Of a DNA stretch of 32,000 bases, positions 3,699-26,882 are shown piece after piece. The notes beneath the pieces are model-generated. The model was not told the origin of the DNA and searched no databases. It was given only the letters and a program-made list of their open reading frames with translations. Every line of letters begins with the position of its first letter. Positions within the stretch are counted from its first letter, which is position 1. The position numbers and the translations under genes were made by a program. Source of the DNA: Candidatus Lokiarchaeum ossiferum (GTDB taxonomy: Archaea > Asgardarchaeota > Lokiarchaeia > Sigyniarchaeales > Promethearchaeaceae); contig CP104013.1 in the NCBI GenBank assembly GCA_025839675.1, forward strand, positions 3,600,001 through 3,632,000, read 5' to 3'.

Positions 3699-4901
3699 TT
3701 ACTGGAATAATCGAGTCATTTTAGAACCGCATGATTTGCATGTGTGATTGGATAATTTATCAAAGCAATGAGAATGATAGATGGCGTTACAATCTGGATT
3801 CCCACATTTTAAAACTTCATCCTTCTCTTCGAAGATCCCATCACAAACTGGACAGGCAGAATACATGGCTTCTTCTCCAAACGAACTTGCTATCGCTGTT
3901 GACACTGGATATGATTGAGGTGATTTCTTATCTGATTGAGATCCCTTCATTGTTTTCATCATTGATTGGTGCATTCTAACTGCTGTTTGAACAGAAGCGG
4001 GGATTTGTAAAAGATAAAGGCAATGAACACAACGAAAAATGGTTCCATCTCCTTCCTTATCTTGGTTTTTTGCCCACATACTGGCACAAGTTGTGTGCAT
4101 TGGGGTTCCACAGTTAGGACAAAACCGTCCCGAAATGGAAAAGCTTGTTTTTGAATATGGGTCGTTCGGTTGAAAACAAATCGAACAACGTTCATAAGAT
4201 TTGGTTCCTCTAAGTCGCTCTATTAACCCTTTTTGATCTTCGGTTCCTCGATTCATTTCATTTTCATCTAAAAGGGGGGCCGCTATCTTTTTTAATACTT
4301 TCGCAGATACTTTTTCTTTACTTTTCCGTGGGGTTGAGCTAGGAAGCTCCATATTTGATGTCGCTAGTTCGGCCACATAATTTAGAATTATTGCAGCGTT
4401 ATTTGCATAACTATATTTTCCCCCCGTCGTATCTGCCAGTTGTTTTAATATACTGAAGTGTTCTACATCGCCCACTCGTATAGTATCCATTTTAATACCC
4501 AATTGCTGTGAAAGGTTTGCCATTTTAATTGGATCTACCTTTGAATTGGTATATTTTCCATCGGAAAAAATTATAATCTTCGGAGATCTCGCACCATTAG
4601 TTCTGATGTCTTCAATTAGTATTTTTATTGCCATACCCACACCTTCTCCCAAAGCGCTTCGACCATGGCAGGTAAGATCTGCAAAGTAGGATGCGATTTG
4701 GTCATAAGATGCACTATCCGTAAAATCAAATACCTTTTTTGCAGCATCACTTATGACTACAACACTATAGGCTGATGAACTCCCAACTACGCTGTCATGG
4801 GTCATTCTTGACTGAATAAAATGAAGTATGGCGGATTTACAAGCTTCTAACCGATTTGGGCTGTAATCAGTACGGAACATGGATCGGGAGGCATCTAACA
4901 C
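3699..4901 (-). CDS. vWA-domain protein with two C-terminal C4HC3 (PHD / RING-variant-like) zinc-binding modules
   Basis: The vWA part has MIDAS DASRS (DxSxS) at residues 3-7 and the IIIFSDG strand. Zinc module 1 is C239-x2-C-x18-C-x2-C-x4-H-x2-C-x18-C-x2-C294 (nt 4020-4187). Zinc module 2 is C350-x2-C-x12-C-x4-C-x4-H-x2-C-x8-C-x2-C391 (nt 3729-3854). The listed start is GTG, and the true start is uncertain (see findings). Confidence 0.8.
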   Translation of the reverse strand: MLDASRSMFRTDYSPNRLEACKSAILHFIQSRMTHDSVVGSSSAYSVVVISDAAKKVFDFTDSASYDQIASYFADLTCHGRSALGEGVGMAIKILIEDIRTNGARSPKIIIFSDGKYTNSKVDPIKMANLSQQLGIKMDTIRVGDVEHFSILKQLADTTGGKYSYANNAAIILNYVAELATSNMELPSSTPRKSKEKVSAKVLKKIAAPLLDENEMNRGTEDQKGLIERLRGTKSYERCSICFQPNDPYSKTSFSISGRFCPNCGTPMHTTCASMWAKNQDKEGDGTIFRCVHCLYLLQIPASVQTAVRMHQSMMKTMKGSQSDKKSPQSYPVSTAIASSFGEEAMYSACPVCDGIFEEKDEVLKCGNPDCNAIYHSHCFDKLSNHTCKSCGSKMTRLFQ

Positions 4902-4952
4902 AAATACTATTGCTTCGGAGGCGTAATCGGGAATTTTTTCATCAGCTCAAAG

Positions 4953-4970
4953 ATTTATATATAAAAATAT
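4953..4970. promoter_or_regulatory. TATA-like A/T block (ATTTATATATAAAAATAT) in the divergent intergenic region between the vWA and GTPase genes
   Basis: It sits about 50 nt upstream of the vWA GTG on the minus strand and about 100 nt upstream of the GTPase ATG on the plus strand. Identification is by sequence pattern only. Confidence 0.25.
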
Positions 4971-5072
4971 GTTTTTCTTTCTTAAAGATTTACTCTTGCA
5001 ATAAAAAATGATCATTTTTTGGAAATTTACATAATTTTTTTTTTAATGTCGAATTAATAGAACTGATCATAA

Positions 5073-6275
5073 ATGTCTGAACAAAACTTTCTTGAAAAAA
5101 TCACGGGATTCTTTAAAGATGGACTTGATTTTTCTTCTATTAAAAAACCTTCTGATGTATTAGATTTACCTTTCGTTGAACTTAAAGCATTTGATGCGCA
5201 ATGGGCCCCTTTCTTTGAAGATTTTGAAGTAAAAACCATAAAAGAACTCGCTCAATTTTCGGAACCAATTATCATTGAAGGCTTAGATCCTGAAGATGTT
5301 AACAAACTCGCCATGATCGCGGAAATGTTATTCTGGAGAATGACACAATTATCCGAATTTGGAGAGCAAAAGAAAAAGGTTGTCTTTTTAGGTCTTGGTA
5401 ATGCTGGAAAAACTTCCGCATTGACTGCGTTATCCGAAAAATACTCTTCTATCAAAGAATTACTTCCGACCCGGGGATTGGCACGTCAAAATACAAAGAT
5501 TCTGGGGTACGATCTAATGGCTTATGATTTCGGTGGACAGAGTGAATATCGAGAACAATATTTCACTAAAGCTGATATGTATTTCTCAGAAGCTGATATG
5601 ATGGTCTTTTGCATTGATATTCAAGATAAAGATCGTTATAATGAATCCCTTGACTATTTAAAACAAATTCTTGAGACATATACCAAATTTGAACTTTTCT
5701 TACCCGTTTTAATTGTATTTACAAAAATGGATCCTGATATAGCCAACGAAGAAAGTATTAATTCAAGCCGAATTAAAATAATCGACGATATTGAGAAGTT
5801 TATTGATCCTAAATTTGATATTGGCTATGCAAATAGTTCTATCTTCGAAAGAAATTCAATCGAAAACTTATTCAGCTTGGCTTTAAAACGGATCTCTACC
5901 TCTGGTGGAGTAATTCAAGAATTGTTGAAAACCTTCGTGAAAGACATTAACGCCCGAGCATGCACTCTTATTTCCTCAACTGGATTAGTATTTGGTTCTT
6001 ATGGGGAAACTCATCAAGAAGAAGAAATGTTGAATAATTCTGCAGCCTACTTGCAAAACTTATATCTTTTCCATTTAACCACGGGTCTTCAAAAAGAAGA
6101 TTTCTATTCATTAACCTATGCGCGTAATAATATGCACTTTATTAGTGAATATATTACAACCTCCGATAGTGGAATGGTGTATTTATGGATTTTAACTCAA
6201 GATATGCGCCAAGAGGTCTTGGGAATTCCAAAATTCCGAGAAGAATTAATGCCTTTGATCGGGCTCTTCTTGTAA
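5073..6275 (+). CDS. Arf/Sar/Arl-like small GTPase with ~100-aa N-terminal extension and C-terminal roadblock/LC7/MglB-like domain
   Basis: G1 is GLGNAGKTS (nt ~5391-5417). G2/G3 follow the Arf pattern LLPTRGLARQNTKILGYDLMAYDFGGQSEYREQYF (PTxG...DxGGQ). G4 is VFTKMD (NKxD variant). The C-terminal 120 aa have residue patterns consistent with the roadblock order alpha-beta-beta-alpha-beta-beta (VIQELLKTFVKDI / ACTLISSTGLVFGSYG / NNSAAYLQNLYLF / MHFISEYI..MVYLWILTQD). Confidence 0.85.
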   Translation: MSEQNFLEKITGFFKDGLDFSSIKKPSDVLDLPFVELKAFDAQWAPFFEDFEVKTIKELAQFSEPIIIEGLDPEDVNKLAMIAEMLFWRMTQLSEFGEQKKKVVFLGLGNAGKTSALTALSEKYSSIKELLPTRGLARQNTKILGYDLMAYDFGGQSEYREQYFTKADMYFSEADMMVFCIDIQDKDRYNESLDYLKQILETYTKFELFLPVLIVFTKMDPDIANEESINSSRIKIIDDIEKFIDPKFDIGYANSSIFERNSIENLFSLALKRISTSGGVIQELLKTFVKDINARACTLISSTGLVFGSYGETHQEEEMLNNSAAYLQNLYLFHLTTGLQKEDFYSLTYARNNMHFISEYITTSDSGMVYLWILTQDMRQEVLGIPKFREELMPLIGLFL

Positions 6276-6743: not shown

Positions 6744-9164
6744 TTGACCTTAGCAAAAACGAATTTTCATTTACCTCAACATAATCAACGCTGCACAATT
6801 TCAAAATTGACTAATAAAATCGAAAATACTGAATCTGCTGCTGAAAACTTGATTGATATTATCGAAGATATATCCAAAAGTGTTGTTAATCAAATGGGTG
6901 CCATAGAAAAGGTGATCAAAGAAATTGAAAATTATTCCGTGGTCAATAAAGAAGTCAACGCACAGACTGAAAATTCAAAAATAATTGCTAACAATACTAT
7001 GGGTGTGGCAAAAAGCGGTCATGGGGCAACAGATCGCTCCATCAAGGCAATTGAGGCCATTGAAACTTCCGTTGGAAGTGTTAAATCAGAGGTTTTGAGT
7101 TTAAGTAAACAAACTCTGGAAATTTCAAAAATGCTTAAAATTATTAAAGATATTTCTCAAAAAACAAATATTTTATCCCTTAATGCTCAAATTGAGGCTG
7201 CCAGAGCGGGAGATGCTGGACGAGGATTTGCGGTTGTTGCTGATGAAGTGGGAAAACTCGCAAAAAGTAGTGATAATGCTGCAGAGGAAATTAATAATAT
7301 TTTATCAAAAATCGAAACCGGTATCAAAACCACATTGGAAGCCATGAAAGACAGTAATAATAAAGTCAAAGAAGGTGTACAAATTACTAAAGATACTAAT
7401 GCCGTTTTTGATAATATTATACAGTCTGTAGATGAAACTTCTGGAGTTATTAACGAAATCAATCTTTCTCTCCATCGTCAAAGTGATAGTTTGGGCCAAA
7501 TCATGGACTCCACTCAAATTATGGATGGAGAGTCTAAGAAAGTTATGAGTTTATCTGAAGTCGCCCTAATTGATGTTGAGAATACAAAGGCAGCCATTAA
7601 CCAGTTATCTAATGTAGGGGATATTTTGACTACTTTATCTAATCAAGTCGAAAAACTCCAAAACAAATTGAATTCTTCCCAGGAAAATATAATTCTCACC
7701 ACATATATGGCTGGAGAATTACGAACGAGAGATCCTGCAGTATCCACTGAAGCTGCGACCAATCATGTCCTTCAAAACATGCATCTTGGATTACTTACCA
7801 TGGGCAATAATTTAAATGCATTAGCAGGAATTGCCAAATCATGGTATGTAAAAGAAGATAATCTCACTTGGGTTTTTAATTTACGTCGGAATGTCAAATT
7901 CCATAATGGGAGAACAGTTAATGCTAATGATGTGAAATATTCCTTCAATCGTTTATTAAGTCCTCAGTTGAATTCCCCCGCAGCATGGTTTCTATTTCCA
8001 TTAGAAGGGGCTGAAGAATTTTATAATAGAAAAACATCCCTTTTTAAAGGGATTAAAGTAGTCAATACCTATCAAATTGAATTAAAACTGAAAGCACCAT
8101 ACCCCGGATTTATTTTGAATTTAACACAACCATCTACTGCAATCTTAGCTAAAGAGGATATTCCACGAGGCAAATTCACCGGATGTGGAAGTTATTATTT
8201 GTCTTCAGAGACAGAATCCCAATATATATTAGCTGCCTTTAAAGATTTTTATGGAGGTTTGCCATATGTTGATGAAGTTCATATTACTTACCAAGATGAA
8301 GATCTCGAAAAAAATGTTATTCAAGGCAAGTATCATTTCTTGGAGATTAAAGATATGAATCAAGTCAAAAAAATCCGTTCAACTAATTCGTCAATGACAA
8401 TCGAAACCATGGATATAATATCTTCCAATTTTGCTGCCTTTAATTTCAGATCGAATTCTATTTTTGTTCAAGATGTCGAGATACGTGAAGCAATCAACTA
8501 TGCTGTGAATAAAAAACGTATCATATCCGATGTTATGCTTGACTTAGTTGATGAATGTAAAGGTATTTTTCCACCCAGCATGTTAAATGATCGATCTATA
8601 AGTGGGTATCCATTTAATCCACAAAAAGCTAAGATGATCCTTAGGAAAAAAAATTTTAACAAATCTACCAACAAACTCAAAATTCTTATAAGAGAATCAG
8701 ATGTAAATTCAGACACCCAAAATCGAAAGATAATTGAATACATTGAAGAAGATTTAAAAACTGTCGGGATTGAGTGTTCATTAGTACCGGTACCTGCAGC
8801 CCAGTATTATAAACCAGAAAGCATGGCAAAAGCAGATATTGCCATTATTGGGTGGATCGCTGATACAGGAGATATGGATAATTTTTTGGAGCCTATTTTT
8901 AATGTTGCAAATTATACCAATTTCGGGAAATATGACAATCCCAAAGTGTTGGAATTAATGAAAGAAGCTAAGATGATCATCATTCCTGCAAAACGTATCG
9001 AAAAATATAAAGAAATTCAAAAAATTTTGCTCGCAGATGTGCCTTGGCTTCATCTATATCATTCAAAAACCATTGTAGCAAAGAAAAAAACAGGGATTGA
9101 AAATGTTCAATATTCCCCCGTAGGAAAAATCATGTTCGAAAATGTGATGATAACTGAAGAATAA
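6744..9164 (+). CDS. Soluble chemoreceptor-like protein: N-terminal MCP signalling hairpin fused to C-terminal family-5 (Opp/Dpp-type) solute-binding domain
   Basis: The MCP tip motif [33 protein letters not shown] lies at nt ~7174-7270. The SBP_bac_5-type block [42 protein letters not shown] is followed by ~480 aa of binding-protein-like sequence. I saw no hydrophobic TM or signal segment. The listed start is TTG at 6744, and the first in-frame ATG is at 6894, so the start is uncertain. Confidence 0.85.
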
Positions 9165-9166
9165 AG

Positions 9167-11056
9167 TTAGGATTTATGCTCGAATTTATATAACTCTTTG
9201 ATTAAACGTTCCAATTTGGATTCTTTAGCTATATTTTTTTTATTTGAATTTGCTTTTAGATTTTCTTGTGAAAATTTCTCCAATTCTTTCGTTACTTTTA
9301 TAATTTCTTGAATAACACTCAAATTTTCTTGAGTGGGAATCATTATGGGTATTTTTTGTAAATCTTTGATGTAAAATTGTAAGTAATCGCCTCGAACATG
9401 GGAATGGGAAAATAATGCGCGATAATACGTGCTAATAAATGTCGAATTCAAAATTCCAAGAAGATAGTAATATTCATCACAATGCGATTGAAAGAGGGAT
9501 AGAAATGGATATCGCATTTCTTCAGCATCGTTTTTTCTTACTAATAGAATGATAGAATTGTTGGCATAATATTGATCTCGATCTAGCGCTGCTTGGATTT
9601 GAGTTCCAAACAGTTTTATCATTATTTTTGGTTTAGCTTCAAAGATCCACTGATCCCTCAAGGAACCATAATCGCCTTGTGAACGATCGATCAAATCTGA
9701 ATTATAATGAACCCACAATCCATTCCACTTGATTTTAAACTTCTCCACCTTATCTCTTGAAGTTATTAGCTTTTTGAAGAGGTTAGAATCAGAAGATTGC
9801 TTTTTAAAAATCAATTTATCCTTCACATTTCCAGTATGAATCCCCTTTCGTAAAATATAGGGACTTGATTTAGAACCTATGTAAAAATAATTTTCTTTTG
9901 GCAGTTTCATTAAATATTCGATTAGTTTTATATTTGAAGAGTTTAAATCAGTTGATATTATAAAATCATGAGCAAGCAAGAAATATGATTGATCAATGAA
10001 AAAATTCTTAGAAAGAGGGGAGGTTTCATTCGAAATAATTGTTTTAAGGTCCGAAATCGTTTCAGTTTTAGCAATATGTATCTTATGTTGTGAGATTGAC
10101 TCAGAAGTGCATTCTTTTTTTTGTAAAATAATTATTACTGGGTATGTTGCGACATTATGAAAGATAGGGAGCTGGGACACATCAATAATATAATGAATCT
10201 TGGTTTGAGTTAGCAATAATTCCCTAATTTTCATACCATAGGATGATACCATCCATTTGTTGGTCAATATTAACCCTGCAAAACCACTTGGTTTGAGTAA
10301 TGTCACGATTTTCTCTAAGAACACTACGGAAATATCAAATTTTTTGTAAGCGCACTTGTATTTCTTTCTTAAAGATGCCCATGTTTTATCTGGTATTGCC
10401 CTTGATTCAATATAGGGGGGATTTCCCAATATAACATTGAATTGATGAGGTGTGTCGAGTTCTGGGTCGAACAATGCATCAGTTTCCTTCCATACTGCAT
10501 TTGGGATGAGGGAATGTTTTGACAAACTGATTGCGGTACCATCAATATCATAGCCATAATAGTTTTCCACATTAAAATGATATTCTGATGATAATTGTGA
10601 TTCTTGATCTTGAATCCACCATTGTGTCAGAAAACGCCCTGTTCCACATGCAATATCTGCTACTTTAATCGATTCGTCATGATTGGAGTCTTCAGAGTTT
10701 TGCTTCTTAGTTAAAAGCTGAATAATGTAATAAATTATTTCTTCTGGAGTATATACTCGACCTGATTCTCTCAATCGGGGTGTTTTTTCAATAATCCGAA
10801 GTTGAGTACCATCCCATTTTAGATAATGTTGAAAGAAAAAATGATAAATGGCCCCCAAAGGATCTGCTATCTCATCGTAAATTGTCCCATTTTTTATCAG
10901 ATTGATCGTTTCCTGCAAGTTCATCTGCATTAACACATTCCAATAATGTGTTCGGGATGATTCTTGGTCCCACGGCAAGTTTTTTTTTTTTAAAGTGCTT
11001 AATTCAAGCCTTATTTGCTGATACAATTTTTGTTTTAAGTTAGTGGGGGAAAACAT
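9167..11056 (-). CDS. N6-adenine DNA methyltransferase, gamma class (Eco57I/TaqI-like catalytic domain plus TaqI_C-like target-recognition domain); no nuclease domain
   Basis: Motif X is GRVYTPEEIIYYII, motif I is VADIACGTGRFL and motif IV is ILGNPPYIE, in the order X-I-IV. The C-terminal LLGILNSTFISTYYRALFS...GDYLQFYIKDLQKIPI resembles the TaqI-type TRD. Confidence 0.9.
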   Translation of the reverse strand: MFSPTNLKQKLYQQIRLELSTLKKKNLPWDQESSRTHYWNVLMQMNLQETINLIKNGTIYDEIADPLGAIYHFFFQHYLKWDGTQLRIIEKTPRLRESGRVYTPEEIIYYIIQLLTKKQNSEDSNHDESIKVADIACGTGRFLTQWWIQDQESQLSSEYHFNVENYYGYDIDGTAISLSKHSLIPNAVWKETDALFDPELDTPHQFNVILGNPPYIESRAIPDKTWASLRKKYKCAYKKFDISVVFLEKIVTLLKPSGFAGLILTNKWMVSSYGMKIRELLLTQTKIHYIIDVSQLPIFHNVATYPVIIILQKKECTSESISQHKIHIAKTETISDLKTIISNETSPLSKNFFIDQSYFLLAHDFIISTDLNSSNIKLIEYLMKLPKENYFYIGSKSSPYILRKGIHTGNVKDKLIFKKQSSDSNLFKKLITSRDKVEKFKIKWNGLWVHYNSDLIDRSQGDYGSLRDQWIFEAKPKIMIKLFGTQIQAALDRDQYYANNSIILLVRKNDAEEMRYPFLSLFQSHCDEYYYLLGILNSTFISTYYRALFSHSHVRGDYLQFYIKDLQKIPIMIPTQENLSVIQEIIKVTKELEKFSQENLKANSNKKNIAKESKLERLIKELYKFEHKS

Positions 11057-11154: not shown

Positions 11155-11466
11155 TTATGCTGTTTTTTCAACAGACTTTACCTTCTCAACGGGCATAAAG
11201 GGTTGAGTTCCAAAGAGTTTTTGCATGGTTTTATCTAAATCGTGTAATAATTTCTTGACAAGATCAAACACCATTTTGACCATATCTTGAGTGAAGGTAA
11301 AGGCAAGGGTAATCATATTATATATAAAGGCGAAGCTCATCACGGCCAAAAACACAGTAATGGCAACAATAGCGATTTGGTAGAGGATGTGCATTCCGGC
11401 AAATTGGCTGAACAGTTCTTCGGCCATGTTTTCAAAGGTATAAGTGTTCATTTTAGGATTCTCCAA
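11155..11466 (-). CDS. Small membrane protein (103 aa, central hydrophobic hairpin, charged C-terminal tail)
   Basis: The ORF carries the hydrophobic core ILYQIAIVAITVFLAVMSFAFIYNMITLAFTF. It sits in tandem with a same-length neighbour. No family was recognised. Confidence 0.5.
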   Translation of the reverse strand: MENPKMNTYTFENMAEELFSQFAGMHILYQIAIVAITVFLAVMSFAFIYNMITLAFTFTQDMVKMVFDLVKKLLHDLDKTMQKLFGTQPFMPVEKVKSVEKTA

Positions 11467-11485
11467 GTAATTTATAAAAAAAAAA

Positions 11486-11797
11486 TTAAGCCTTCATTTC
11501 GGAAACAGGTTGGGCTGAATAAGCTCTAGGTTGATCGACAGGTCTAAGAATTATTCTCAAAATTGCATATGGGATTAATAAAGACAATACAACGGAATAA
11601 TAGCTGACATAAATTGATAGTTTAACTGCATAGTAGGTCAAATAAAGGGATCCTTTGACTGCCCAATAGGTGAGGGTCAAAGCTGAGATTGTAATGGCAA
11701 CGGCCAATGCAAAAAAGATGATTTGGTCCCGGAGGGACATGGCGATAAATTGAGCGTGAGCGGTTTCACTCCAATTAATAAACGATTCTACGGACAT
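11486..11797 (-). CDS. Small membrane protein (103 aa), possible distant paralog of 11155..11466
   Basis: There are two or three hydrophobic helices (IIFFALAVAITISALTLTYWAV; LSIYVSYYSVVLSLLIPYAIL). The N-terminal AQFIAMSLRDQI..AVAIT weakly matches SQFAGMHILYQI..VAIT in the neighbour. Confidence 0.5.
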   Translation of the reverse strand: MSVESFINWSETAHAQFIAMSLRDQIIFFALAVAITISALTLTYWAVKGSLYLTYYAVKLSIYVSYYSVVLSLLIPYAILRIILRPVDQPRAYSAQPVSEMKA

Positions 11798-13955: not shown

Positions 13956-15029
13956 ATGGAAGAACTTCTAATAAAAAAGCAAAAATATGTACAAATCCCC
14001 CTAGAGATCAGCAAACTTGAAAAATCACCCCAGACTGTAAAAAAGCTCAGTTTACATTTATGTTCTAACTCAAATATCCAAATTACCGATGAATGGTCCA
14101 GTCTAGAGTATATAGAAATTATTGGCTGTCGATATCTTGAACTCAGCTTTGCTTTCAAACAACCTTCGCAGCTTAAGCAAATCTTCTTTGCTTCGACCGA
14201 TTATGTAGATATATTGGATTTTTCCGGATCCTTTCCATTTTTTTCCAAGTGGCGATTTGAAAGCTGTCGCTATGTGAAATTTAAAGGCACATTTACAGGC
14301 GATAATCATCTGCAATCTCTTGAATTTAACGATTCCCCTAATTGTGAAGTGTTCAAAAACCCGACAAACTTACCGTATCTAAATTCCATTGAGTATCTTG
14401 ATGGTTGTAACTTTACCAAGTTAGATCTCAATTTGTTAACCGCTCCAAAACTCCATCGCCTATGGTTCAGAAATTCCAACTATGTCAACATTGTTTCCTT
14501 GGGAAAAATTGAAGAGCAATTGCAATCCTTCAAATTTGAGAACTGTGCTTATCCCAAACTAAATCTTGATTTTTCTCGGTTGGCTCGTTTGACCCATGAA
14601 AACCAACCAACAGAACTAGATTCAAAGGTATCCGCTGATTCTCCCGAAGAAGAAAGTAGTCCCTTTCGGAAATTTAAACGACAACCACGTCCCAAAAGAA
14701 CTACCACTAAACGGAATATTCGCAATGATCCAGACATGGTTTTAATGCGAGAAACTCTTTCCAGTGAAGATCCCACCCTATCTGCCCAGAATTTTCTTAA
14801 TTCACCTTCTTCTGTTCTCAATGATAATAATAATGACAAAGAAAATCTCCCGGCGTATGATCCAACTCAATTTATGAACTCTCTTAAACAATTAAATGAT
14901 TCTCCGAGTAAAACCTCCCCAACCGTTCCTGAAAGTCCGAAATTTAAGTTTTGTCCAGAATGTGGATCTCAAAATCCCCTGGGGGCTGGTTTTTGTTCTT
15001 CTTGTGGATTCAAGCTTCAAAACCGGTGA
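13956..15029 (+). CDS. Repeat protein: seven ~23-aa leucine-rich-repeat-like units, Ser/Pro/Lys-rich disordered linker, C-terminal zinc ribbon
   Basis: The repeats start LEYIEIIGCRYLE / LKQIFFASTDYVD / FSKWRFESCRYVK / LQSLEFNDSPNCE / LNSIEYLDGCNFT / LHRLWFRNSNYVN / LQSFKFENCAYPK. The C-terminus is CPECGSQNPLGAGFCSSCG (CxxC-x10-CxxC). Confidence 0.65.
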   Translation: MEELLIKKQKYVQIPLEISKLEKSPQTVKKLSLHLCSNSNIQITDEWSSLEYIEIIGCRYLELSFAFKQPSQLKQIFFASTDYVDILDFSGSFPFFSKWRFESCRYVKFKGTFTGDNHLQSLEFNDSPNCEVFKNPTNLPYLNSIEYLDGCNFTKLDLNLLTAPKLHRLWFRNSNYVNIVSLGKIEEQLQSFKFENCAYPKLNLDFSRLARLTHENQPTELDSKVSADSPEEESSPFRKFKRQPRPKRTTTKRNIRNDPDMVLMRETLSSEDPTLSAQNFLNSPSSVLNDNNNDKENLPAYDPTQFMNSLKQLNDSPSKTSPTVPESPKFKFCPECGSQNPLGAGFCSSCGFKLQNR

Positions 15030-19277: not shown

Positions 19278-21305
19278 TTAGATGCGACGTTTTTTTATAT
19301 ATTTATGAGCAATTTCTCGGGTATGTTTTCCTGCTAGTACATGCAAATTTCGAAGTGCTCGTAAACTAATGGGATTAAAACGATCTAGAGGAAGATATAG
19401 GATGGAAATATCTAATAAACGGGCAATTTGATAGAAGATCGGTTTGGGTTTTTGAGTGGCTACATATGTAAGGATTTTTTTTTGGGCAAAAAGAATGGCG
19501 GCCATCAAGAGACGATCGGCTTTCGCTTTGGCCATAGGGTATTTCTTGACAAATTTTGCCGTCCAAATATTGGGGACCCCTCGAGGGGGAAAAAAAGAGG
19601 TAACTCCCCCTAATTCAATTCGAGAGATACCTGGACCCACTAATTCAATTCCAGGAAACGTACTATAGAAGGCCAAATCACTCTCTTGTTCATGTTCTGC
19701 ATACCACATCATTTCATGGGGATAGCGTTCCATTTCGTCATCATCCCGATCAAAAATAATTACAACTGAATCAACTTCACCACGGATGGGTCGTTCTTCG
19801 CGCACATAAATTTTATGTTCTAATGGCCAATTGCGAATGGTTTCACGAAAATCAATTCCATCCATTAATGTTGAGGTAAATTCATGTATTTTTACATTAT
19901 GATCCTTGAGTAAATTCATCGATCGTTGTCGTACGTGGCGAAAATAATCTTCTTCAAAAATATCTTCTGGAATATGGGAAGCTAAATCCCAGCGATCTTG
20001 ATTCCATGCCGCACGCCAATCGCCTTTTTGGTCTTCCTTGGGTCGAGGTTTGAGTGGTAATCGAATTTTTTGAATTTTAAGCGGGATATTTCTTCTTAAC
20101 TTAAAATATTTTCCATGAAGTAAAATTCCTTTATTAGTAAACGGTAAGGATTCTAATTTTGGATCTTCCACTGCATAAGGATAGTATTTACATTCCTCCC
20201 AGACTATCCAAGCGAAATCATCATTTACAATGCTTTTTGCAGCTAGAACTATTTCAAATAAATGAGGGGTGATTTTCGATTCGATCATCGGAAGATTCCG
20301 TATATATTGGAAAAGGGATTTCAATTTGTGTAAATTAATTTCTTCGTTATATTCCCGATGATATTGGGCTACACTCCGGTGGATGATTGTTTTAATCGCT
20401 TTGAAAAGGTCGAATTTAATCAATTCAAATTCAGAATTAGAAAAATTGGATATTTTGTCCATAGCCTTTTTCTGCCTTTTCCGAAATATCTCGAATTGTA
20501 AGACCGTATTGGGAGTTTCCAACATCACTTTTGGTAAATCATCTTGTAGAATATTGTAGATTTCCGCTTGGATTTCTGGTCCAAAGGCTGTTAGATCAGA
20601 ATTTCCTTTATTATTCTCTAATAAGATTTTAATGGCTTCCCAATGAGCCATTCCTAACACGATTAAGATCTTTTCTTCCGGATATTTTTGAATTAGCTCA
20701 CTCAATCGAGAAGCCATATAAGTATTACGCAAATCATCAATTTCTCGGGGATTTGACATCCAATTCTGAGCTTCTTTTCCGGTGGGGATTTGAGTCGAAC
20801 TTTCTGATTCTAATACATTTTTTTCCGCTGTATCTATATCCTTTTGTGTTTGAATTGTTTTCTCGGTCTCATTAAATTGCTTTTTGGCTAAATCCTCAAA
20901 ATGCAACTCTTTTTGAACTATTTCGTAGAATTCTTTGAGGGAAAGGAAATTTAACGCGTATGAATCAGGTAAGGGAGTCAAAACAGGATCATAATTCTTT
21001 ACAAATAAATCAATGAATTCAATGGGCAATCCATATTCCCTTCCCAACCGGATCGCCTCAATCAGGGAATCGGAAGGTATGATTGGAATATACAATTGCT
21101 GACCAAGTAATTCATCAAAATAAATAATAATGGAAATGCTTGGTAATCGTCGCACTCCTAGTAAAATTTTTTTTTCTAAATTCTCTGGAAATTCGACTGC
21201 GATGCGATCTGGAGGTGAATTATAAAAACAAGTCCGGATCTCATGGACAAAATCGAGATTAGAATGATAAGTTGGGATGATTGTTAAATTTTTATACCGA
21301 ATCAT
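19278..21305 (-). CDS. Large uncharacterised protein with TraB/GumN/ChaN-like (DUF5682-like) N-terminal module; second gene of AAA+ operon
   Basis: LTIIPTYHSNLDFVHEIRTCFYNSPPDRIAVEFPENL ... IPIIPSDSLIEAIRLGREYGLPIEFIDL ... ILIVLGMAHWEAI matches the TraB/ChaN-type pattern (strand-xxH ... PDxhxhE ... hhhhGxxH). The family assignment was made by eye only. GAGGA lies 6-10 nt upstream of the ATG, and the gap to the upstream gene is 20 nt. Confidence 0.6.
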   Translation of the reverse strand: MIRYKNLTIIPTYHSNLDFVHEIRTCFYNSPPDRIAVEFPENLEKKILLGVRRLPSISIIIYFDELLGQQLYIPIIPSDSLIEAIRLGREYGLPIEFIDLFVKNYDPVLTPLPDSYALNFLSLKEFYEIVQKELHFEDLAKKQFNETEKTIQTQKDIDTAEKNVLESESSTQIPTGKEAQNWMSNPREIDDLRNTYMASRLSELIQKYPEEKILIVLGMAHWEAIKILLENNKGNSDLTAFGPEIQAEIYNILQDDLPKVMLETPNTVLQFEIFRKRQKKAMDKISNFSNSEFELIKFDLFKAIKTIIHRSVAQYHREYNEEINLHKLKSLFQYIRNLPMIESKITPHLFEIVLAAKSIVNDDFAWIVWEECKYYPYAVEDPKLESLPFTNKGILLHGKYFKLRRNIPLKIQKIRLPLKPRPKEDQKGDWRAAWNQDRWDLASHIPEDIFEEDYFRHVRQRSMNLLKDHNVKIHEFTSTLMDGIDFRETIRNWPLEHKIYVREERPIRGEVDSVVIIFDRDDDEMERYPHEMMWYAEHEQESDLAFYSTFPGIELVGPGISRIELGGVTSFFPPRGVPNIWTAKFVKKYPMAKAKADRLLMAAILFAQKKILTYVATQKPKPIFYQIARLLDISILYLPLDRFNPISLRALRNLHVLAGKHTREIAHKYIKKRRI

Positions 21306-21325
21306 TCGTTTTCCTCAAATTTTTT

Positions 21326-22663
21326 CTAAGTTTTATTATCGTTCTTTTTTTTTTTTTCCTTTTTTTTTGAAGCTTTAGATGATTGTTTTTGACGTTCTTT
21401 ACGTTCCAAAAATTCGCGGATCATATCATTAGGATCACTTTCCGGGTCAATCTGTTCAAAAGATTCATCAAATGCGGGATTATTATGCGAAGAGTCGGAG
21501 TCATCTTTGTCAATTAAGTGAATAACATCATCTTCATTATCATCTAAAAATTCATCATCTTCTCTCTCCAGCCGATCTGATTCAATATAATAGCCTTCTT
21601 CTTCATCATCTTCATCAAGAAGTTCCTCTTCTAAGAGATCCTCATCAACATAATCATCTTCTGGATCGTCGTGGTCTGTGCTCGAATCCATAAAAACATC
21701 ATTTAATTTATCAAACATTGATTTGAAATGTGAATTCATTCGATGATCTTCTTGATAATTTGGTGATTCTGAAAGAAAATTGAACGCTTCAGGACCTAAA
21801 ATTTGACGGATTGACTGGCGAAAAAGACTCAAATCAAGATCAGGAGTATTTGGGTTTTCCCTTTCTAGAGGTTTTGTCTCTGGTTCTTTGTTCTTTTCTG
21901 TAAATTGTTCAATTTTTAAATAATACCGACAAATATTGATCCCATCTCGGATAGAAAATTCTTTATTATGAAGATGGGCTCGTTGCAAAAAATTAACCGT
22001 GTATAATAATATATCTTTCTTAGCATAAGGGAGATTAAATTTTAGAATTTGAAATTCTTCATTCCGATCGGGAAAATCAATCAAAATTTGGGGTTGAAGT
22101 CGACTGTGAATATATTCAGGAACTTCAAAAGTACTGGAATCATCATTCATCGTCACACAGACTCGAAAATTAGGATGCGCTTTTATCTTAATACCAGCAA
22201 TGATTGATTCGATATAACGTCGTTGATCAAGGAGTGGAGCAAGTGATGCCCAAGATTTTTCAGACATACGATTAGCCTCATCTAAAATACAGACACCTCC
22301 CTTTATCATGGCAGTAACCAATGCGCTCGCGTGATATTTAATGGTATTTTCATTGCTTATAACCGGGGTAACTAGCAAATCTTCTGGACGAGTATCAACT
22401 GTACATTGATAAATGTAAACTGGTAGGTTTATGGATTTGGCAGCACTATAAGCTAAAGTTGTTTTTCCAACTCCGGGTTTGCCTAAAATCTGAGGATTCA
22501 TAGGAATATCTTTTTTTTCATCAACCATCATCCACGCGGCTAGAAGTTGAGTCATATACGTTTCTCCTCCGATCCAATGCATATTGTCGATTTCATCGGG
22601 ATTATTTAAAATTAAATCCACGCCATCAATATTTACTGTTTTTCCCATTCCTTCTTGACTCAT
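21326..22663 (-). CDS. MoxR/AAA_5-type AAA+ ATPase with ~150-aa acidic then lysine-rich C-terminal tail
   Basis: Walker A is ILGKPGVGKTTLAY and Walker B is GGVCILDEANRMSE. The segments FRVCVTMNDDSS and EVPEYIHSRLQPQILIDFPDRNEEFQILKF (sensor/arginine region) are typical of MoxR/CbbQ/NorQ-like ATPases. The tail is DHDDPEDDYVDEDLLEEELLDEDDEEEGYY...DDEFLDDNEDD...KASKKKEKKKKNDNKT. Confidence 0.85.
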   Translation of the reverse strand: MSQEGMGKTVNIDGVDLILNNPDEIDNMHWIGGETYMTQLLAAWMMVDEKKDIPMNPQILGKPGVGKTTLAYSAAKSINLPVYIYQCTVDTRPEDLLVTPVISNENTIKYHASALVTAMIKGGVCILDEANRMSEKSWASLAPLLDQRRYIESIIAGIKIKAHPNFRVCVTMNDDSSTFEVPEYIHSRLQPQILIDFPDRNEEFQILKFNLPYAKKDILLYTVNFLQRAHLHNKEFSIRDGINICRYYLKIEQFTEKNKEPETKPLERENPNTPDLDLSLFRQSIRQILGPEAFNFLSESPNYQEDHRMNSHFKSMFDKLNDVFMDSSTDHDDPEDDYVDEDLLEEELLDEDDEEEGYYIESDRLEREDDEFLDDNEDDVIHLIDKDDSDSSHNNPAFDESFEQIDPESDPNDMIREFLERKERQKQSSKASKKKEKKKKNDNKT

Positions 22664-26504: not shown

Positions 26505-26882
26505 TTATTCTAAAGAAGTTCCACAGGAAGCACAGAATTTGCTGCTTTCATCATGAGCAACCCCACACATTGGACAGAACGTTCCAGTAGTAGGTGATTG
26601 AACATGTGAACTGATATGAATTGGCTGAGATGGTGTCATTTCAATGTTATATCTAGAGGATTTCTTAAAATTGCTGTATTCAATAGTGCATCTGATTGCT
26701 TGAATAAATAACACAATTTTTGGAATGACTGCCCAGAATGGGTCATATGGAAAGATGATACTTAGAACAATGGAGACAATTAAGAAACTGACCCATGCAT
26801 CTAACATCTTTTTTCGTTCACGGTCGAGAGTTCGGGGTTGGTCGGCGGTTGGTTGAGACATTTGAGTTGGAGTTTGAGACAT
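26505..26882 (-). CDS. Small membrane protein with two TM helices and C-terminal zinc ribbon
   Basis: TM segments are WVSFLIVSIVLSIIF and FWAVIPKIVLFIQAI. The C-terminus is CPMCGVAHDESSKFCASCG (CxxC-x10-CxxC). Confidence 0.6.
   Translation of the reverse strand: MSQTPTQMSQPTADQPRTLDRERKKMLDAWVSFLIVSIVLSIIFPYDPFWAVIPKIVLFIQAIRCTIEYSNFKKSSRYNIEMTPSQPIHISSHVQSPTTGTFCPMCGVAHDESSKFCASCGTSLE

What the first reader, a model, noticed from the sequence alone, without database searches (positions are those of the whole stretch)
3699..4901. vWA domain fused to two C4HC3 (PHD / RING-variant-like) zinc modules
Residues 1 to ~180 form a vWA domain (MIDAS DxSxS, IIIFSDG strand). After a Lys/Glu-rich linker come two cysteine modules with the same ligand order Cys4-His-Cys3. 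Module 1 is C-x2-C-x18-C-x2-C-x4-H-x2-C-x18-C-x2-C, and module 2 is C-x2-C-x12-C-x4-C-x4-H-x2-C-x8-C-x2-C. The x4-H-x2-C core is the ligand signature of cross-brace PHD/RINGv fingers. Module 1 also has a Trp four residues after the sixth ligand (HTTCASMW), as in RING-H2/RINGv E3 domains. A vWA plus RING/PHD-like protein is a eukaryote-style architecture and could be an E3-like or adaptor component. I do not recognise it as a described archaeal family.
Basis: partly seen in the sequence, partly recalled or inferred. Interest (0 to 1): 0.65.

Follow-up and report, generated by a model that had tools for sequence, protein, structure and literature searches.

The report
Asgard vWA protein with two RING fingers
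This Lokiarchaeum gene encodes a protein-docking (vWA) domain followed by two zinc fingers of the kind that eukaryotic ubiquitin ligases use, it looks overall like the TFIIH subunit p44/Ssl1, and across Asgard archaea it almost always sits head-to-head with a Rag-like small GTPase gene, which points to an undescribed eukaryote-style regulatory module.

Summary
The gene lies on the minus strand (3699-4901 as annotated; probably 3699-4934 from an ATT start). It encodes a vWA domain with a complete MIDAS motif and two C4HC3 zinc modules with exactly the reported spacings.

All 16 zinc ligands and Trp291 are invariant or Cys/His-swapped in 30 homologues down to 20% identity. Sequence profiles and AlphaFold/Foldseek place both modules with cross-brace RING-H2 E3 domains, not zinc ribbons. 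Module 1 keeps the classical E2-contact positions (Ile, Trp, Pro/Val).

The whole-protein model matches TFIIH p44/Ssl1 best (top 20 PDB hits, full length). However, the zinc modules do not match p44's own C-terminal domain, and the vWA is no closer to p44 than to Rpn10 or bacterial BatA-type vWAs.

The window is from Ca. Lokiarchaeum ossiferum. The family is found only in Asgard MAGs, mostly Loki/Helarchaeial.

In 71 of 73 informative genomes the gene is divergently paired with a Rag/Arf-like GTPase. In 66 of 80 a SNAP-family TPR protein lies nearby. A distant subfamily sits beside an E2 and a JAB peptidase.

Best reading: a RING-type E3 or scaffold coupled to a Rag-like GTPase. E3 activity is untested. 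I found no description of the family in the searchable literature. Novelty: new variant of a known kind.

The parts
3699..4934 (-). Probable full coding sequence of the vWA-2xRING protein (411 aa if translation starts at ATT 4934-4932; stop codon at 3699-3701).
   Evidence: Orthologues start with Met at the column aligned with this ATT. Two related species have ATT or ATA there, with in-frame stops 2-3 codons upstream.
3699..4901 (-). ORF as listed and as annotated by NCBI (GTG start, 400 aa).
   Evidence: P0001 is 99% identical, 400 aa, and named 'VWA domain-containing protein [Ca. Lokiarchaeum ossiferum]'.
4359..4916 (-). vWA domain (residues 11-196 of the 415-aa numbering), of the BatA/Rpn10/Ssl1 type with the ...D-Y-x-P-N-R-L-E-A motif after the MIDAS.
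   Evidence: Pfam scores: VWA_2 1.5e-14, VWA 1e-12, Ssl1 3.6e-5. PDB profile scores: Rpn10 2e-16, bacterial 4rck 1e-16, p44 4e-11. The AF2 model has pLDDT mostly above 90 in this region.
4881..4895 (-). MIDAS motif D18-A-S20-R-S22. The remaining ligands would be S97 (Thr-equivalent, in HGRSALG) and D129 (in FSDG).
   Evidence: The motif is conserved in the close subfamily but decays in distant subfamilies.
4200..4358 (-). Lys/Glu-rich linker containing a conserved amphipathic segment (vLkkIAapL; I221, A222 and L225 are invariant or nearly so).
4020..4187 (-). Zinc module 1 (C254...C309), a C4HC3 RING-type finger. I256 (C1+2), W291 (C6+4) and V307 (Pro in about 90% of homologues, C7+1) sit at the classical E2-contact positions.
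   Evidence: Ligands are invariant in 30 sequences. hhalign to module 2 gives 94% probability and E 9e-8. Weak Pfam hits to zf-RING-like and PHD. Model pLDDT is 92-95.
3936..3998 (-). Long alpha-helix and variable spacer between the two zinc modules.
   Evidence: AF2 secondary structure H317-337.
3729..3854 (-). Zinc module 2 (C365...C406), a C4HC3 RING-type finger. This is the part with direct sequence similarity to RING-H2 E3 ligases and to Prok-RING_1.
   Evidence: Pfam scores: Prok-RING_1 6e-6, zf-RING_2 3e-4. Profile vs PDB: Arkadia 7e-8, RLIM 8e-7, RNF38, RNF13. Foldseek: RNF12 2.3 A over 62 columns, probability 1.0.
4935..5072 (.). AT-rich 138-bp divergent intergenic region shared with the GTPase gene. 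A TATA-like TTTTTATATATAAA lies about 19-32 nt upstream of the ATT.
   Evidence: Sequence read. The promoter role is inferred, not tested.
5073..6275 (+). Divergently transcribed partner gene: a 400-aa Rag/Gtr1-Arf-like small GTPase with an N-terminal extension and a C-terminal Rag-type domain.
   Evidence: Pfam scores: Arf 2.7e-19, Gtr1_RagA 1e-17. PDB 8yl2 'GTP-binding protein' 3e-37 and Gtr1/RagA about 1e-7 over residues 99-370. The orthologue is immediately upstream and divergent in 71 of 80 species-representative loci.

Best explanation
The gene encodes a cytosolic protein of an Asgard-restricted family, found mainly in Lokiarchaeia and Helarchaeales.

Architecture:
- An N-terminal vWA domain with a metal-ion-dependent adhesion site.
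- A conserved linker helix.
- Two tandem, mutually homologous C4HC3 zinc fingers, each of which binds two zinc ions in the cross-brace RING manner.

Most likely mechanism: it works as a RING-type E3 ubiquitin ligase or ligase-like scaffold of the Asgard ubiquitin system. Module 1 offers the E2-docking surface (Ile256, Trp291, Pro/Val307). The vWA MIDAS face captures an acidic residue of a partner or substrate.

The protein is functionally coupled to the Rag/Arf-like GTPase encoded head-to-head with it. In most genomes it is also coupled to a nearby SNAP-family TPR protein. Either the GTPase is its substrate, or the nucleotide state of the GTPase recruits or switches the ligase.

Shown: the domain composition, ligand conservation, RING similarity, p44-like overall fold and the gene linkage.
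Inferred: zinc binding, cross-brace topology, E2 binding, ubiquitin transfer and the physical interaction with the GTPase.

The confidence given (0.5) is for the functional reading as a whole. The structural part (vWA plus two RING-type fingers) I would put near 0.9.
For: Domains and conservation:
- vWA with full MIDAS.
- 16 conserved ligands and an invariant Trp across 30 sequences down to 20% identity, including a Cys-to-His swap at ligand 6 of module 2.

RING similarity:
- Module 2 hits RING-H2 E3s.
- 23 of 30 members hit zf-RING_2 (best 6e-8), 12 of 30 hit Prok-RING_1 (best 2.6e-8), and a few hit ANAPC11, Rbx1 or FANCL RINGs.
- Modules 1 and 2 are homologous.
- The C-terminal model (pLDDT 88.6) superposes on RNF12, RNF38, RNF13 and RNF165 RINGs solved with E2~Ub, at 1.6-3 A.
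- I256 and P307 are at least 90% conserved and W291 is 100% conserved. These are the c-Cbl I383/W408/P417 positions (my own knowledge).

Ubiquitin link:
- A 31%-identical family member lies directly downstream of a JAB/MPN gene and near a UQ_con E2.
- E2 orthologues are widespread in Loki/Hel MAGs.

Gene linkage:
- The GTPase is divergent and adjacent in 71 of the 73 loci that have more than 500 bp of upstream sequence.
- The linkage survives rearrangements (L008, L072) and replacement of the intervening genes.
- A 20%-identical paralogue (L012) is again head-to-head with a Rag-like GTPase, and a second paralogue in L016 follows an Arf/Ras-like GTPase.
Against: - No E1, E2, Ubl or JAB gene lies within +-6 kb of the gene in the window or in any of 80 orthologous loci. 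The ubiquitin link rests on one distant subfamily.
- I did not confirm an E2 in the L. ossiferum genome itself.
- The window protein's own RING scores are below Pfam gathering thresholds (Prok-RING_1 26.5 vs 29.1; zf-RING_2 21.4 vs 27.3).
- No basic 'linchpin' residue follows ligand 8 in either module (Leu/Phe/Tyr in module 1, Gly in module 2).
- The best full-length structural match, p44/Ssl1, uses its zinc domains mainly as structural connectors.
- Much of the neighbourhood conservation comes from one broadly syntenic clade (an MtrH-like gene is also conserved in 64 of 80 loci). Asgard genomes are also rich in small GTPases.
- The MIDAS decays in distant subfamilies.
Confidence: 0.5

Rival explanations
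1. Non-catalytic p44-like scaffold. The vWA and the two zinc fingers are purely protein-protein interaction modules. They hold together a complex containing the Rag-like GTPase and the SNAP-like TPR protein, for example as a platform or a GAP/GEF cofactor. No ubiquitin is transferred.
For: - The top 20 PDB fold matches over the full length are TFIIH p44/Ssl1, whose vWA, eZnF and RING act as connectors (the role of p44 is from my own knowledge).
- No Ub-system genes lie near the gene in 80 loci.
- There is no linchpin residue after ligand 8.
- There is tight linkage to a GTPase and a TPR protein.
Against: - Module 1 keeps the Ile/Trp/Pro E2-contact triad almost invariantly.
- The modules resemble catalytic RING-H2 E3s much more than p44's C-terminal domain. 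p44 ranks 39th (E 0.11) for the C-terminal model, and there is no C1_4 hit.
- E2 and JAB genes neighbour a family member.
Confidence: 0.28
2. A true orthologue or ancestor-like homologue of TFIIH p44/Ssl1 that works with archaeal XPD/XPB helicases in transcription or repair.
For: - Full-length Foldseek hits to p44/Ssl1 at E 5e-17 to 4e-12.
- Pfam Ssl1 hits in 18 of 30 members, best 1.8e-9.
- Local TCHG...S motif shared with human p44.
Against: - By sequence the vWA is no closer to p44 (4e-11) than to Rpn10 (2e-16) or to a bacterial membrane vWA (1e-16).
- There is no match to the TFIIH C1-like domain.
- p44 is a weak hit for the zinc region.
- No helicase or other TFIIH-like gene appears in any neighbourhood examined; the conserved partners are a GTPase and a SNAP-like protein.
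Confidence: 0.06
3. PHD-type reader modules. The C4HC3 fingers recognise lysine-containing or N-terminal peptides (for example tailed Asgard histones) rather than E2 enzymes.
For: - The ligand spacing fits the PHD pattern exactly.
- PHD hits 14 of 30 members and PHD_NSD 11 of 30 (best 1.3e-7).
- There are weak tandem matches to JADE1 PZP and DPF3 double PHD.
Against: - RING families score better and in more members (zf-RING_2 in 23 of 30).
- The best superpositions (probability 0.97-1.0, 1.6-3 A) are RING-H2 domains, whereas tandem-PHD hits have TM about 0.2.
- The Ile/Trp/Pro triad is a RING feature.
- There is no chromatin gene in the conserved neighbourhood.
Confidence: 0.06
4. Two or four independent zinc ribbons with sequential ligand pairing, acting as nucleic-acid-binding or generic structural zinc knuckles.
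For: - Marginal Pfam zinc-ribbon hits around CPNCG (E 0.1-3).
- CxxC pairs are common in archaeal proteins.
Against: - Only 1 of 30 members hits a zinc-ribbon family at E<=0.01.
- The H-x2-C pair sits at the N-terminus of a helix in the model, which is treble-clef geometry.
- Module 2 aligns ligand for ligand with cross-brace RINGs.
Confidence: 0.03

Closest known systems
TFIIH core subunit p44/GTF2H2 (yeast Ssl1)
   Same: The order of parts is the same: an N-terminal BatA/Rpn10-type vWA followed by zinc modules ending in a RING-like binuclear finger. It gives the best full-length structural matches in the PDB (20 of the top 20, E down to 5e-17). The Pfam Ssl1 model hits 18 of 30 family members. 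The core ligand spacing x2/x4/x2 is as in p44's C4C4 RING (from memory).
   Different: Here there are two C4HC3 RING-H2-like fingers instead of a C4 finger plus a C4C4 'C1-like' RING. There is no PF07975 match, and p44 is only a weak hit for the zinc region alone. The vWA has a complete MIDAS. The conserved partners are a Rag-like GTPase and a SNAP-like protein, not helicases.
Proteasome ubiquitin receptor Rpn10/S5a
   Same: It is the closest eukaryotic vWA by sequence (2x5n at 2e-8 with a single sequence and 2e-16 with the profile). It shares the D-x-S...D-Y-x-P-x-R-[LF]-E-A signature. A proteasome alpha-subunit gene lies next to the orthologue in the MK-D1 clade.
   Different: There are no UIM motifs (no Pfam UIM hit); RING fingers take their place. 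The proteasome neighbour is present in only 8 of 80 loci and not in this window.
Eukaryotic RING-H2 E3 ligases (Arkadia/RNF111, RLIM/RNF12, RNF38, RNF13, RNF165, synoviolin)
   Same: Module 2 aligns to their RING domains at E 7e-8 to 1e-5. The model superposes on them at 1.6-3 A. Hydrophobic E2-contact positions are retained, most clearly in module 1.
   Different: Ligands 3-4 form a C-x2/4-C knuckle (C4HC3, PHD-like) instead of C-x-H. There is no linchpin Arg. Two fingers occur in tandem after a vWA domain.
Prokaryotic RING finger family 1 (Pfam PF14446, Burroughs/Iyer/Aravind 2011) and the small RING E3 of the Caldiarchaeum/Asgard Ub operons
   Same: It is the best Pfam zinc-finger hit for the window protein (6e-6), and 12 of 30 members match (best 2.6e-8). 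One subfamily lies beside E2 and JAB genes, as those RINGs do.
   Different: The window protein scores below the gathering threshold. It is fused to a vWA and duplicated. It is not in a Ub operon in 80 of 80 orthologous loci.
Eukaryotic vWA+RING E3 ligases (plant RGLG1/2, WAV3/SOR1; fungal Ste5/Far1 RING-PH-vWA)
   Same: They combine a vWA docking domain with a RING in one polypeptide (papers listed).
   Different: The vWA subtype (copine-like), the domain order, and a single RING all differ. No specific sequence relationship was detected here.
RING-bearing regulators of small GTPases (GATOR2/SEACAT for Rag; HOPS/CORVET Vps11/18/8 for Rab)
   Same: A functional analogy only: RING-finger proteins and alpha-solenoid/TPR proteins operate with Rag/Rab GTPases. 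Here a RING protein, a SNAP-type TPR protein and a Rag-like GTPase are genetically linked.
   Different: No homology was shown beyond the RING fold. There is no beta-propeller. The link here is by gene neighbourhood, not by biochemistry.

Membership tests
vWA domain (PF00092/PF13519) | Significant match to the family profile above the curated cut-off | tested here: met
   VWA_2 scores 54.9 bits (cut-off 27) and VWA 49.2 bits (cut-off 23.8).
vWA domain (PF00092/PF13519) | MIDAS ligands: DxSxS, plus Thr/Ser, plus Asp | tested here: met
   D18/S20/S22, S97 and D129 are present. They are conserved in the close subfamily. Metal binding itself was not tested.
RING finger (cross-brace binuclear treble clef) | Eight conserved Cys/His ligands in the pattern C-x2-C...C..C/H...H/C-x2-C...C-x2-C | tested here: met
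   Both modules qualify: ligands are invariant in 30 sequences, with one Cys/His swap.
RING finger (cross-brace binuclear treble clef) | Significant profile similarity to RING families | tested here: met
   Family profile vs PDB RING-H2 domains gives 7e-8 to 1e-5. zf-RING_2 hits 23 of 30 members, best 6e-8. The window protein alone is sub-threshold (21.4 vs 27.3 bits). Module 1 is linked through hhalign to module 2.
RING finger (cross-brace binuclear treble clef) | Cross-brace pairing (ligands 1,2,5,6 / 3,4,7,8) | tested here: inconclusive
   The AF2 model (pLDDT 88.6) superposes on RING domains at 1.6-3 A, and the H-x2-C pair starts a helix. However, coordinates could not be inspected and no zinc is modelled.
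RING finger (cross-brace binuclear treble clef) | E2 binding and E3 activity | not testable with these tools
   Only indirect evidence exists: I256/W291/P307 conservation and E2+JAB neighbours of P0052.
PHD finger | C4HC3 with C-x2-C-x(8-21)-C-x(2-4)-C-x(4-5)-H-x2-C-x(12-46)-C-x2-C | tested here: met
   Module 1 fits fully. Module 2 fits except for its last spacer of 8 residues, which is shorter than the usual 12 or more.
PHD finger | Profile match above threshold, and a peptide-binding aromatic cage | tested here: inconclusive
   PHD scores 15.6 bits (cut-off 24) and PHD_NSD 20 bits (cut-off 23.9) for the window protein. PHD hits 14 of 30 members and PHD_NSD 11 of 30 at E<=0.01, which is weaker than RING. 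The aromatic cage was not examined.
RINGv / RING-CH | C-x-C at ligands 3-4 and about 7 residues before the His | tested here: not met
   The spacings are x2/x4 in module 1 and x4/x4 in module 2. There is no RINGv Pfam hit.
Prok-RING_1 (PF14446) | Profile match above the gathering score | tested here: inconclusive
   The window protein scores 26.5 bits vs cut-off 29.1. 12 of 30 members hit at E<=0.01, best 2.6e-8.
Prok-RING_1 (PF14446) | Gene-neighbourhood association with E2, Ubl and JAB | tested here: not met
   None found in the window or in 80 orthologous loci. It is present only for the distant P0052 subfamily.
TFIIH p44/Ssl1 | Ssl1-type vWA (PF04056) | tested here: inconclusive
   The window protein scores 24.1 bits vs cut-off 27. 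18 of 30 members hit, best 1.8e-9. Rpn10 and bacterial vWAs score as well or better.
TFIIH p44/Ssl1 | C-terminal TFIIH C1-like C4C4 RING (PF07975) preceded by a C4 finger | tested here: not met
   There is no C1_4 hit in any of 30 members. p44 is absent from the top 60 PDB sequence hits for the zinc region and ranks 39th by fold.
TFIIH p44/Ssl1 | Overall fold and domain order | tested here: met
   The top 20 Foldseek PDB hits are p44/Ssl1, aligned over 410-440 columns, with E from 5e-17 to 4e-12.
TFIIH p44/Ssl1 | Partnership with XPD, p34/Tfb4 and p62 | not testable with these tools
   No helicase or other TFIIH-like gene appears in any neighbourhood seen.
Rpn10 | vWA plus C-terminal ubiquitin-interacting motifs | tested here: not met
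   The vWA is similar, but there is no UIM hit and RING fingers take their place.
BatA/BatB aerotolerance vWA proteins | Membrane-anchored vWA that reaches the NCBIfam cut-off | tested here: not met
   BatA scores 40 bits vs cut-off 380. There is no N-terminal extension for TM helices.

The most novel reading that the evidence does not exclude
The family is the surviving archaeal relative of the stock that gave rise to the eukaryotic intracellular vWA-plus-zinc-finger proteins (TFIIH p44/Ssl1 and its paralogue p34/Tfb4, and perhaps Rpn10).

In Asgard archaea it would work not in transcription but as a GTPase-switched RING ubiquitin ligase. Together with a Rag-like GTPase and a SNAP-like solenoid protein it would form a prototype of the RING + solenoid + small-GTPase regulatory complexes of eukaryotic endomembrane and nutrient signalling.
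Probability: 0.12. Interest if true: 0.85.

Novelty: new variant of a known kind. Interest (0 to 1): 0.62.

Why it matters
[quoted passage not shown] How their many small GTPases and their ubiquitin system are wired is largely unknown. One published survey found that MK-D1 GTPase genes generally do not sit in operons with roadblock, longin or TRAPPC3 genes, which makes GAP/GEF partners hard to predict from genome layout (PMC10933270).

This finding gives a concrete and nearly universal genetic pairing. In Lokiarchaeia, a Rag-like GTPase is paired with a vWA protein carrying two RING-type fingers, and usually with a SNAP-family protein nearby. That makes a specific GTPase-ligase (or GTPase-scaffold) interaction directly testable. 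Both cultured species, Promethearchaeum syntrophicum MK-D1 and Ca. L. ossiferum, have the gene pair.

It also supplies a prokaryotic protein whose whole architecture resembles TFIIH p44/Ssl1. I found no archaeal counterpart of that subunit described in the literature available to me. The protein is currently annotated only as 'VWA domain-containing protein', with a start codon that truncates the domain.

Tried and rejected
1. **Frameshift or homopolymer error at the A6 run after the out-of-frame ATG 4942.** This would give MKKIPDY... in the window and also works in L017. It fails in the 83%-identical L097, which has ATT instead of that ATG and a TAA two codons before the conserved ATT. Rejected in favour of ATT/ATA initiation.

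2. **SNAP-like neighbour in this window.** tblastn found none. The similarly sized ORF 30712-31845 is unrelated.

3. **p44-specific zinc domain.** There is no C1_4 hit, and the sequence and fold signal for the C-terminal half alone is weak. Membership in the p44 family was therefore not claimed.

4. **Zinc-ribbon reading.** Only marginal hits.

5. **Literature.** Searches for Asgard + vWA + RING + ubiquitin, TFIIH + p44 + Asgard, Asgard + von Willebrand, and Lokiarchae + RING finger found no description of the family. The Burroughs 2011 prokaryotic-RING paper is not held. A search for the PDB codes 8YL2/8ZLA of the GTPase homologues found no paper.

6. **Confirming an E2 in L. ossiferum.** The search returned Loki/Hel/Hod MAG E2s but none named for this species, so this stays unverified.

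7. **The search for related loci with the diverse alignment A2.** It failed for lack of a conserved stretch. The closer alignment A1 worked.

8. **Sec23/24 (vWA trunk + zinc finger + Sar1) as a model.** It is not among the top 50 fold hits.

9. **Tandem 103-aa ORFs at 11155-11797.** They are not paralogues.
Full report
**1. What is there**

The interval 3699-4901 holds a 400-aa ORF on the minus strand that starts at GTG. Numbering is for the 415-aa in-frame stretch 3702-4946(-).
- MIDAS: D18-A-S20-R-S22.
- Strand: IIIFSDG.
- A Lys/Glu-rich linker.
- Module 1: C254-x2-C257-x18-C276-x2-C279-x4-H284-x2-C287-x18-C306-x2-C309, with W291.
- Module 2: C365-x2-C368-x12-C381-x4-C386-x4-H391-x2-C394-x8-C403-x2-C406.

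The reading frame stays open for 15 more codons upstream of the GTG. Those codons encode the first beta-strand of the vWA (..EAIVFVLD). Orthologues start MPE..E.IVF.LDASRSM, and the codon aligned with their Met is ATT at 4934-4932.

Two related species have ATT (L097, 83% identity, with an in-frame TAA two codons upstream) and ATA (L017, 64% identity, with a TGA three codons upstream) at the same place, followed by the same conserved strand. A -1 frameshift from an upstream ATG would work for two of the three species but not for L097. I therefore take a near-cognate AUU/AUA start as the likeliest. The annotated GTG start truncates the domain.

**2. Where it comes from and how widespread it is**

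An essentially identical protein (99%) is annotated 'VWA domain-containing protein' in Ca. Lokiarchaeum ossiferum. GC content is about 33%.
- The first search found about 52 homologues at 40-99% identity, plus two at 31%.
- An exhaustive profile search of 1.84 billion cluster representatives found 63 at E<=1e-30, about 35 of them full length.
- Members that carry names are Promethearchaeota/Lokiarchaeota or Helarchaeota MAGs.
- In GTDB species representatives, 151 loci encode a relative. The best 80 are all Asgard MAGs. A few are labelled Hod-, Thor- or Hermodarchaeota by their depositors.
- Variants exist in which vWA plus module 1 is followed by something other than module 2: Helarchaeota forms of 619-686 aa, and 404-473-aa forms with a coiled coil.

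**3. Conservation**

In 30 diverse members down to about 20% identity, fifteen ligands and W291 are invariant. C394 is Cys or His. I256, P307 (Val in this protein), R305 and G273-R274 are at least 90% conserved. The MIDAS is intact in the close subfamily but erodes in distant ones. The zinc fingers are therefore the family's constant core.

**4. What the zinc modules are**

For the single protein, Pfam gives sub-threshold hits to Prok-RING_1 (6e-6), zf-RING_2 (3e-4), PHD_NSD and zf-RING-like.

Across the family:
- zf-RING_2 hits 23 of 30 members (best 6e-8).
- Prok-RING_1 hits 12 of 30 (best 2.6e-8).
- PHD hits 14 of 30 (best 2e-4).
- A few members hit ANAPC11, Rbx1, FANCL or SLX1 RINGs.
- A zinc-ribbon family hits 1 of 30.

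A profile of the C-terminal half finds RING-H2 E3 domains in the PDB: Arkadia 7e-8 and RLIM 8e-7, followed by RNF4, RNF165, RNF38, RNF13, synoviolin and AMFR. All align to module 2, ligand for ligand, except that the family uses a C-x4-C knuckle where RING-H2 has C-x-H. Modules 1 and 2 are homologous to each other, with all eight ligands in register (hhalign 94%, E 9e-8).

An AlphaFold model of the C-terminal 172 residues (pLDDT 88.6) matches RING domains best. RNF12 superposes at 2.3 A over 62 columns. RNF38, RNF13, RNF165, TRIM2, RMR1 and Slx1 match with probability 0.97-1.0. Tandem-PHD matches are poor.

In the model, the H-x2-C pair of each module opens a helix, as in treble-clef/RING site 1. 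Module 1 carries Ile at C1+2, Trp at C6+4 and Pro/Val at C7+1. These are the positions that contact E2 in c-Cbl and other RINGs (my own knowledge). No basic linchpin follows ligand 8.

So the spacing is PHD-like (C4HC3), the RINGv spacing is not met, and the sequence and predicted fold are RING-H2-like. Cross-brace pairing is inferred, not seen.

**5. The vWA and the whole protein**

By sequence, the vWA belongs to the BatA/Rpn10/Ssl1 group, which shares the D-x-S-x-S..D-[YF]-x-P-N-R-L-E-A signature. PDB profile scores are 1e-16 for a bacterial membrane vWA (4rck), 2e-16 for Rpn10, 4e-11 for human p44 and 3e-9 for BatB.

The full-length AlphaFold model (pLDDT 82.4) gives a striking fold-search result. 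The top 20 PDB matches are all TFIIH p44/GTF2H2 or yeast Ssl1, aligned over 410-440 columns at E 5e-17 to 4e-12. The vWA-only matches all score weaker, at about 1e-11 or worse.

The architecture is thus p44-like. However, p44's diagnostic C1-like domain is not matched, and p44 is only rank 39 for the zinc region alone. I therefore do not file the protein as a p44 family member.

**6. Genomic context**

Other genes in the window:
- His kinase
- 2-hydroxyacid dehydrogenase
- MCP-SBP fusion
- Eco57I-type methylase
- AAA_5 ATPase
- M32 carboxypeptidase

None of these is a Ub-system gene.

The divergent neighbour at 5073-6275 is a 400-aa Arf/Gtr1-RagA-like GTPase.

The same head-to-head pair occurs in P. 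syntrophicum MK-D1 and in several MAGs. In 80 species-representative loci the orthologous GTPase lies immediately upstream and divergent in 71. Seven of the other nine loci have less than 500 bp of upstream sequence.

A 377-380-aa TPR protein lies downstream in 66 of 80 loci. The MK-D1 copy passes the Pfam SNAP threshold (1e-7, 32 bits). It is absent from this window.

Clustering all ORFs of the loci shows these as the most conserved neighbours, together with an MtrH-like gene (64 loci). Conservation then drops to 46, 40 and 28 loci. Part of this is plain synteny within one clade.

Three observations argue for a functional link rather than plain synteny:
- The GTPase/vWA-RING/SNAP trio persists between deeply diverged clades in which the intervening gene differs (proteasome alpha vs MtrH).
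- It persists through rearrangements (L008, L072).
- A 20%-identical paralogue is again head-to-head with a Rag-like GTPase (L012), and another paralogue follows an Arf/Ras-like GTPase (L016).

The most distant full-length subfamily (P0052, 31% identity) lies directly downstream of a JAB/MPN gene and near a UQ_con E2. E2 orthologues are common in Loki/Hel MAGs, although I could not confirm one in L. ossiferum itself.

**7. Interpretation**

The best-supported reading is a RING-type E3 ligase or ligase-like scaffold. Its vWA/MIDAS domain recruits a partner, and it is functionally coupled to a Rag-like GTPase. The main rival is a non-catalytic p44-like connector of a GTPase/SNAP-like complex. 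PHD-reader, TFIIH-orthologue and zinc-ribbon readings are less likely, for the reasons given under the rivals.

No paper in the searchable library describes the family. One survey notes that MK-D1 GTPases generally do not share operons with roadblock, longin or TRAPPC3 genes. The L. ossiferum paper notes enrichment of Gtr1/RagA GTPases.

**8. Verdict**

This is a new variant of known kinds (RING E3 / vWA-zinc-finger proteins), with an unusually informative conserved gene pairing. Catalytic activity, zinc stoichiometry, the GTPase interaction and the AUU start all remain to be tested.

Noticed in passing
window 4902-4949 (minus strand); L097 270-345; L017 1000-1075: The start codon of the vWA-RING gene appears to be ATT (ATA in one relative) in three related species, where other orthologues have ATG. 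The annotated GTG/ATG starts cut off vWA strand beta1. A TATA-like TTTTTATATATAAA lies about 19-32 nt upstream, so the mRNA may be leaderless or short-leadered.
   Followed up: partly
window 5073-6275 (+): A Rag/Gtr1-Arf-like GTPase of 400 aa with an N-terminal extension of about 95 aa. Its closest solved relatives are the unnamed 'GTP-binding proteins' 8yl2 (3e-37) and 8zla, for which I found no paper. It is the conserved divergent partner of the vWA-RING gene.
   Followed up: partly
L001 10160-11293; L004 9395-10537; L008 9574-10704 (not in the window): A 377-380-aa TPR protein lies near the vWA-RING gene in 66 of 80 Asgard loci. The MK-D1 copy passes the Pfam SNAP (soluble NSF attachment protein) threshold. 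L. ossiferum has lost it from this neighbourhood.
   Followed up: partly
L006 2126-6024 and L007: In a distant subfamily (probably Helarchaeial), the vWA-RING gene follows a 495-aa JAB/MPN protein with a long helical tail and lies near a UQ_con E2. This is a possible compact Ub module.
   Followed up: partly
L016 4771-10560; L012; L014: A second vWA-RING subfamily is repeatedly adjacent to methionyl-tRNA synthetase. L016 carries two vWA-RING paralogues within 5 kb, with the synthetase and an Arf/Ras-like GTPase between them.
   Followed up: no
window 6744-9164 (+): An 806-aa ORF (TTG start) combines an MCP signalling domain (residues 104-261) with a C-terminal family-5 solute-binding domain (362-724). 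This is an unusual order for a chemoreceptor-like protein in an Asgard archaeon.
   Followed up: no
window 19278-22663 (-): An AAA_5 (MoxR/dynein-related) ATPase is followed by a 675-aa protein with no Pfam hit. The same pair lies a few kb from the vWA-RING gene in MK-D1 (L002). MoxR-type ATPases often work with vWA proteins, but no link was tested.
   Followed up: no
window 9167-11056 (-): An Eco57I/N6_Mtase/TaqI_C type IIG-like restriction-modification enzyme is syntenic next to the GTPase gene in MK-D1, L003 and L010.
   Followed up: no
window 13956-15029 (+) and 26505-26882 (-): Two otherwise unannotated proteins end in the same short zinc-ribbon (Zn_Ribbon_1/DZR) module. A homologue of the first is syntenic in L010.
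   Followed up: no
L033, L034, L036, L046, L064, L077, L078: Loci labelled Hodarchaeota, Thorarchaeota or Hermodarchaeota by their depositors carry vWA-RING genes about 40% identical to the query, with the same GTPase/SNAP-like synteny as Lokiarchaeial MAGs. Either the family extends beyond Lokiarchaeia or these bins are mislabelled.
   Followed up: no
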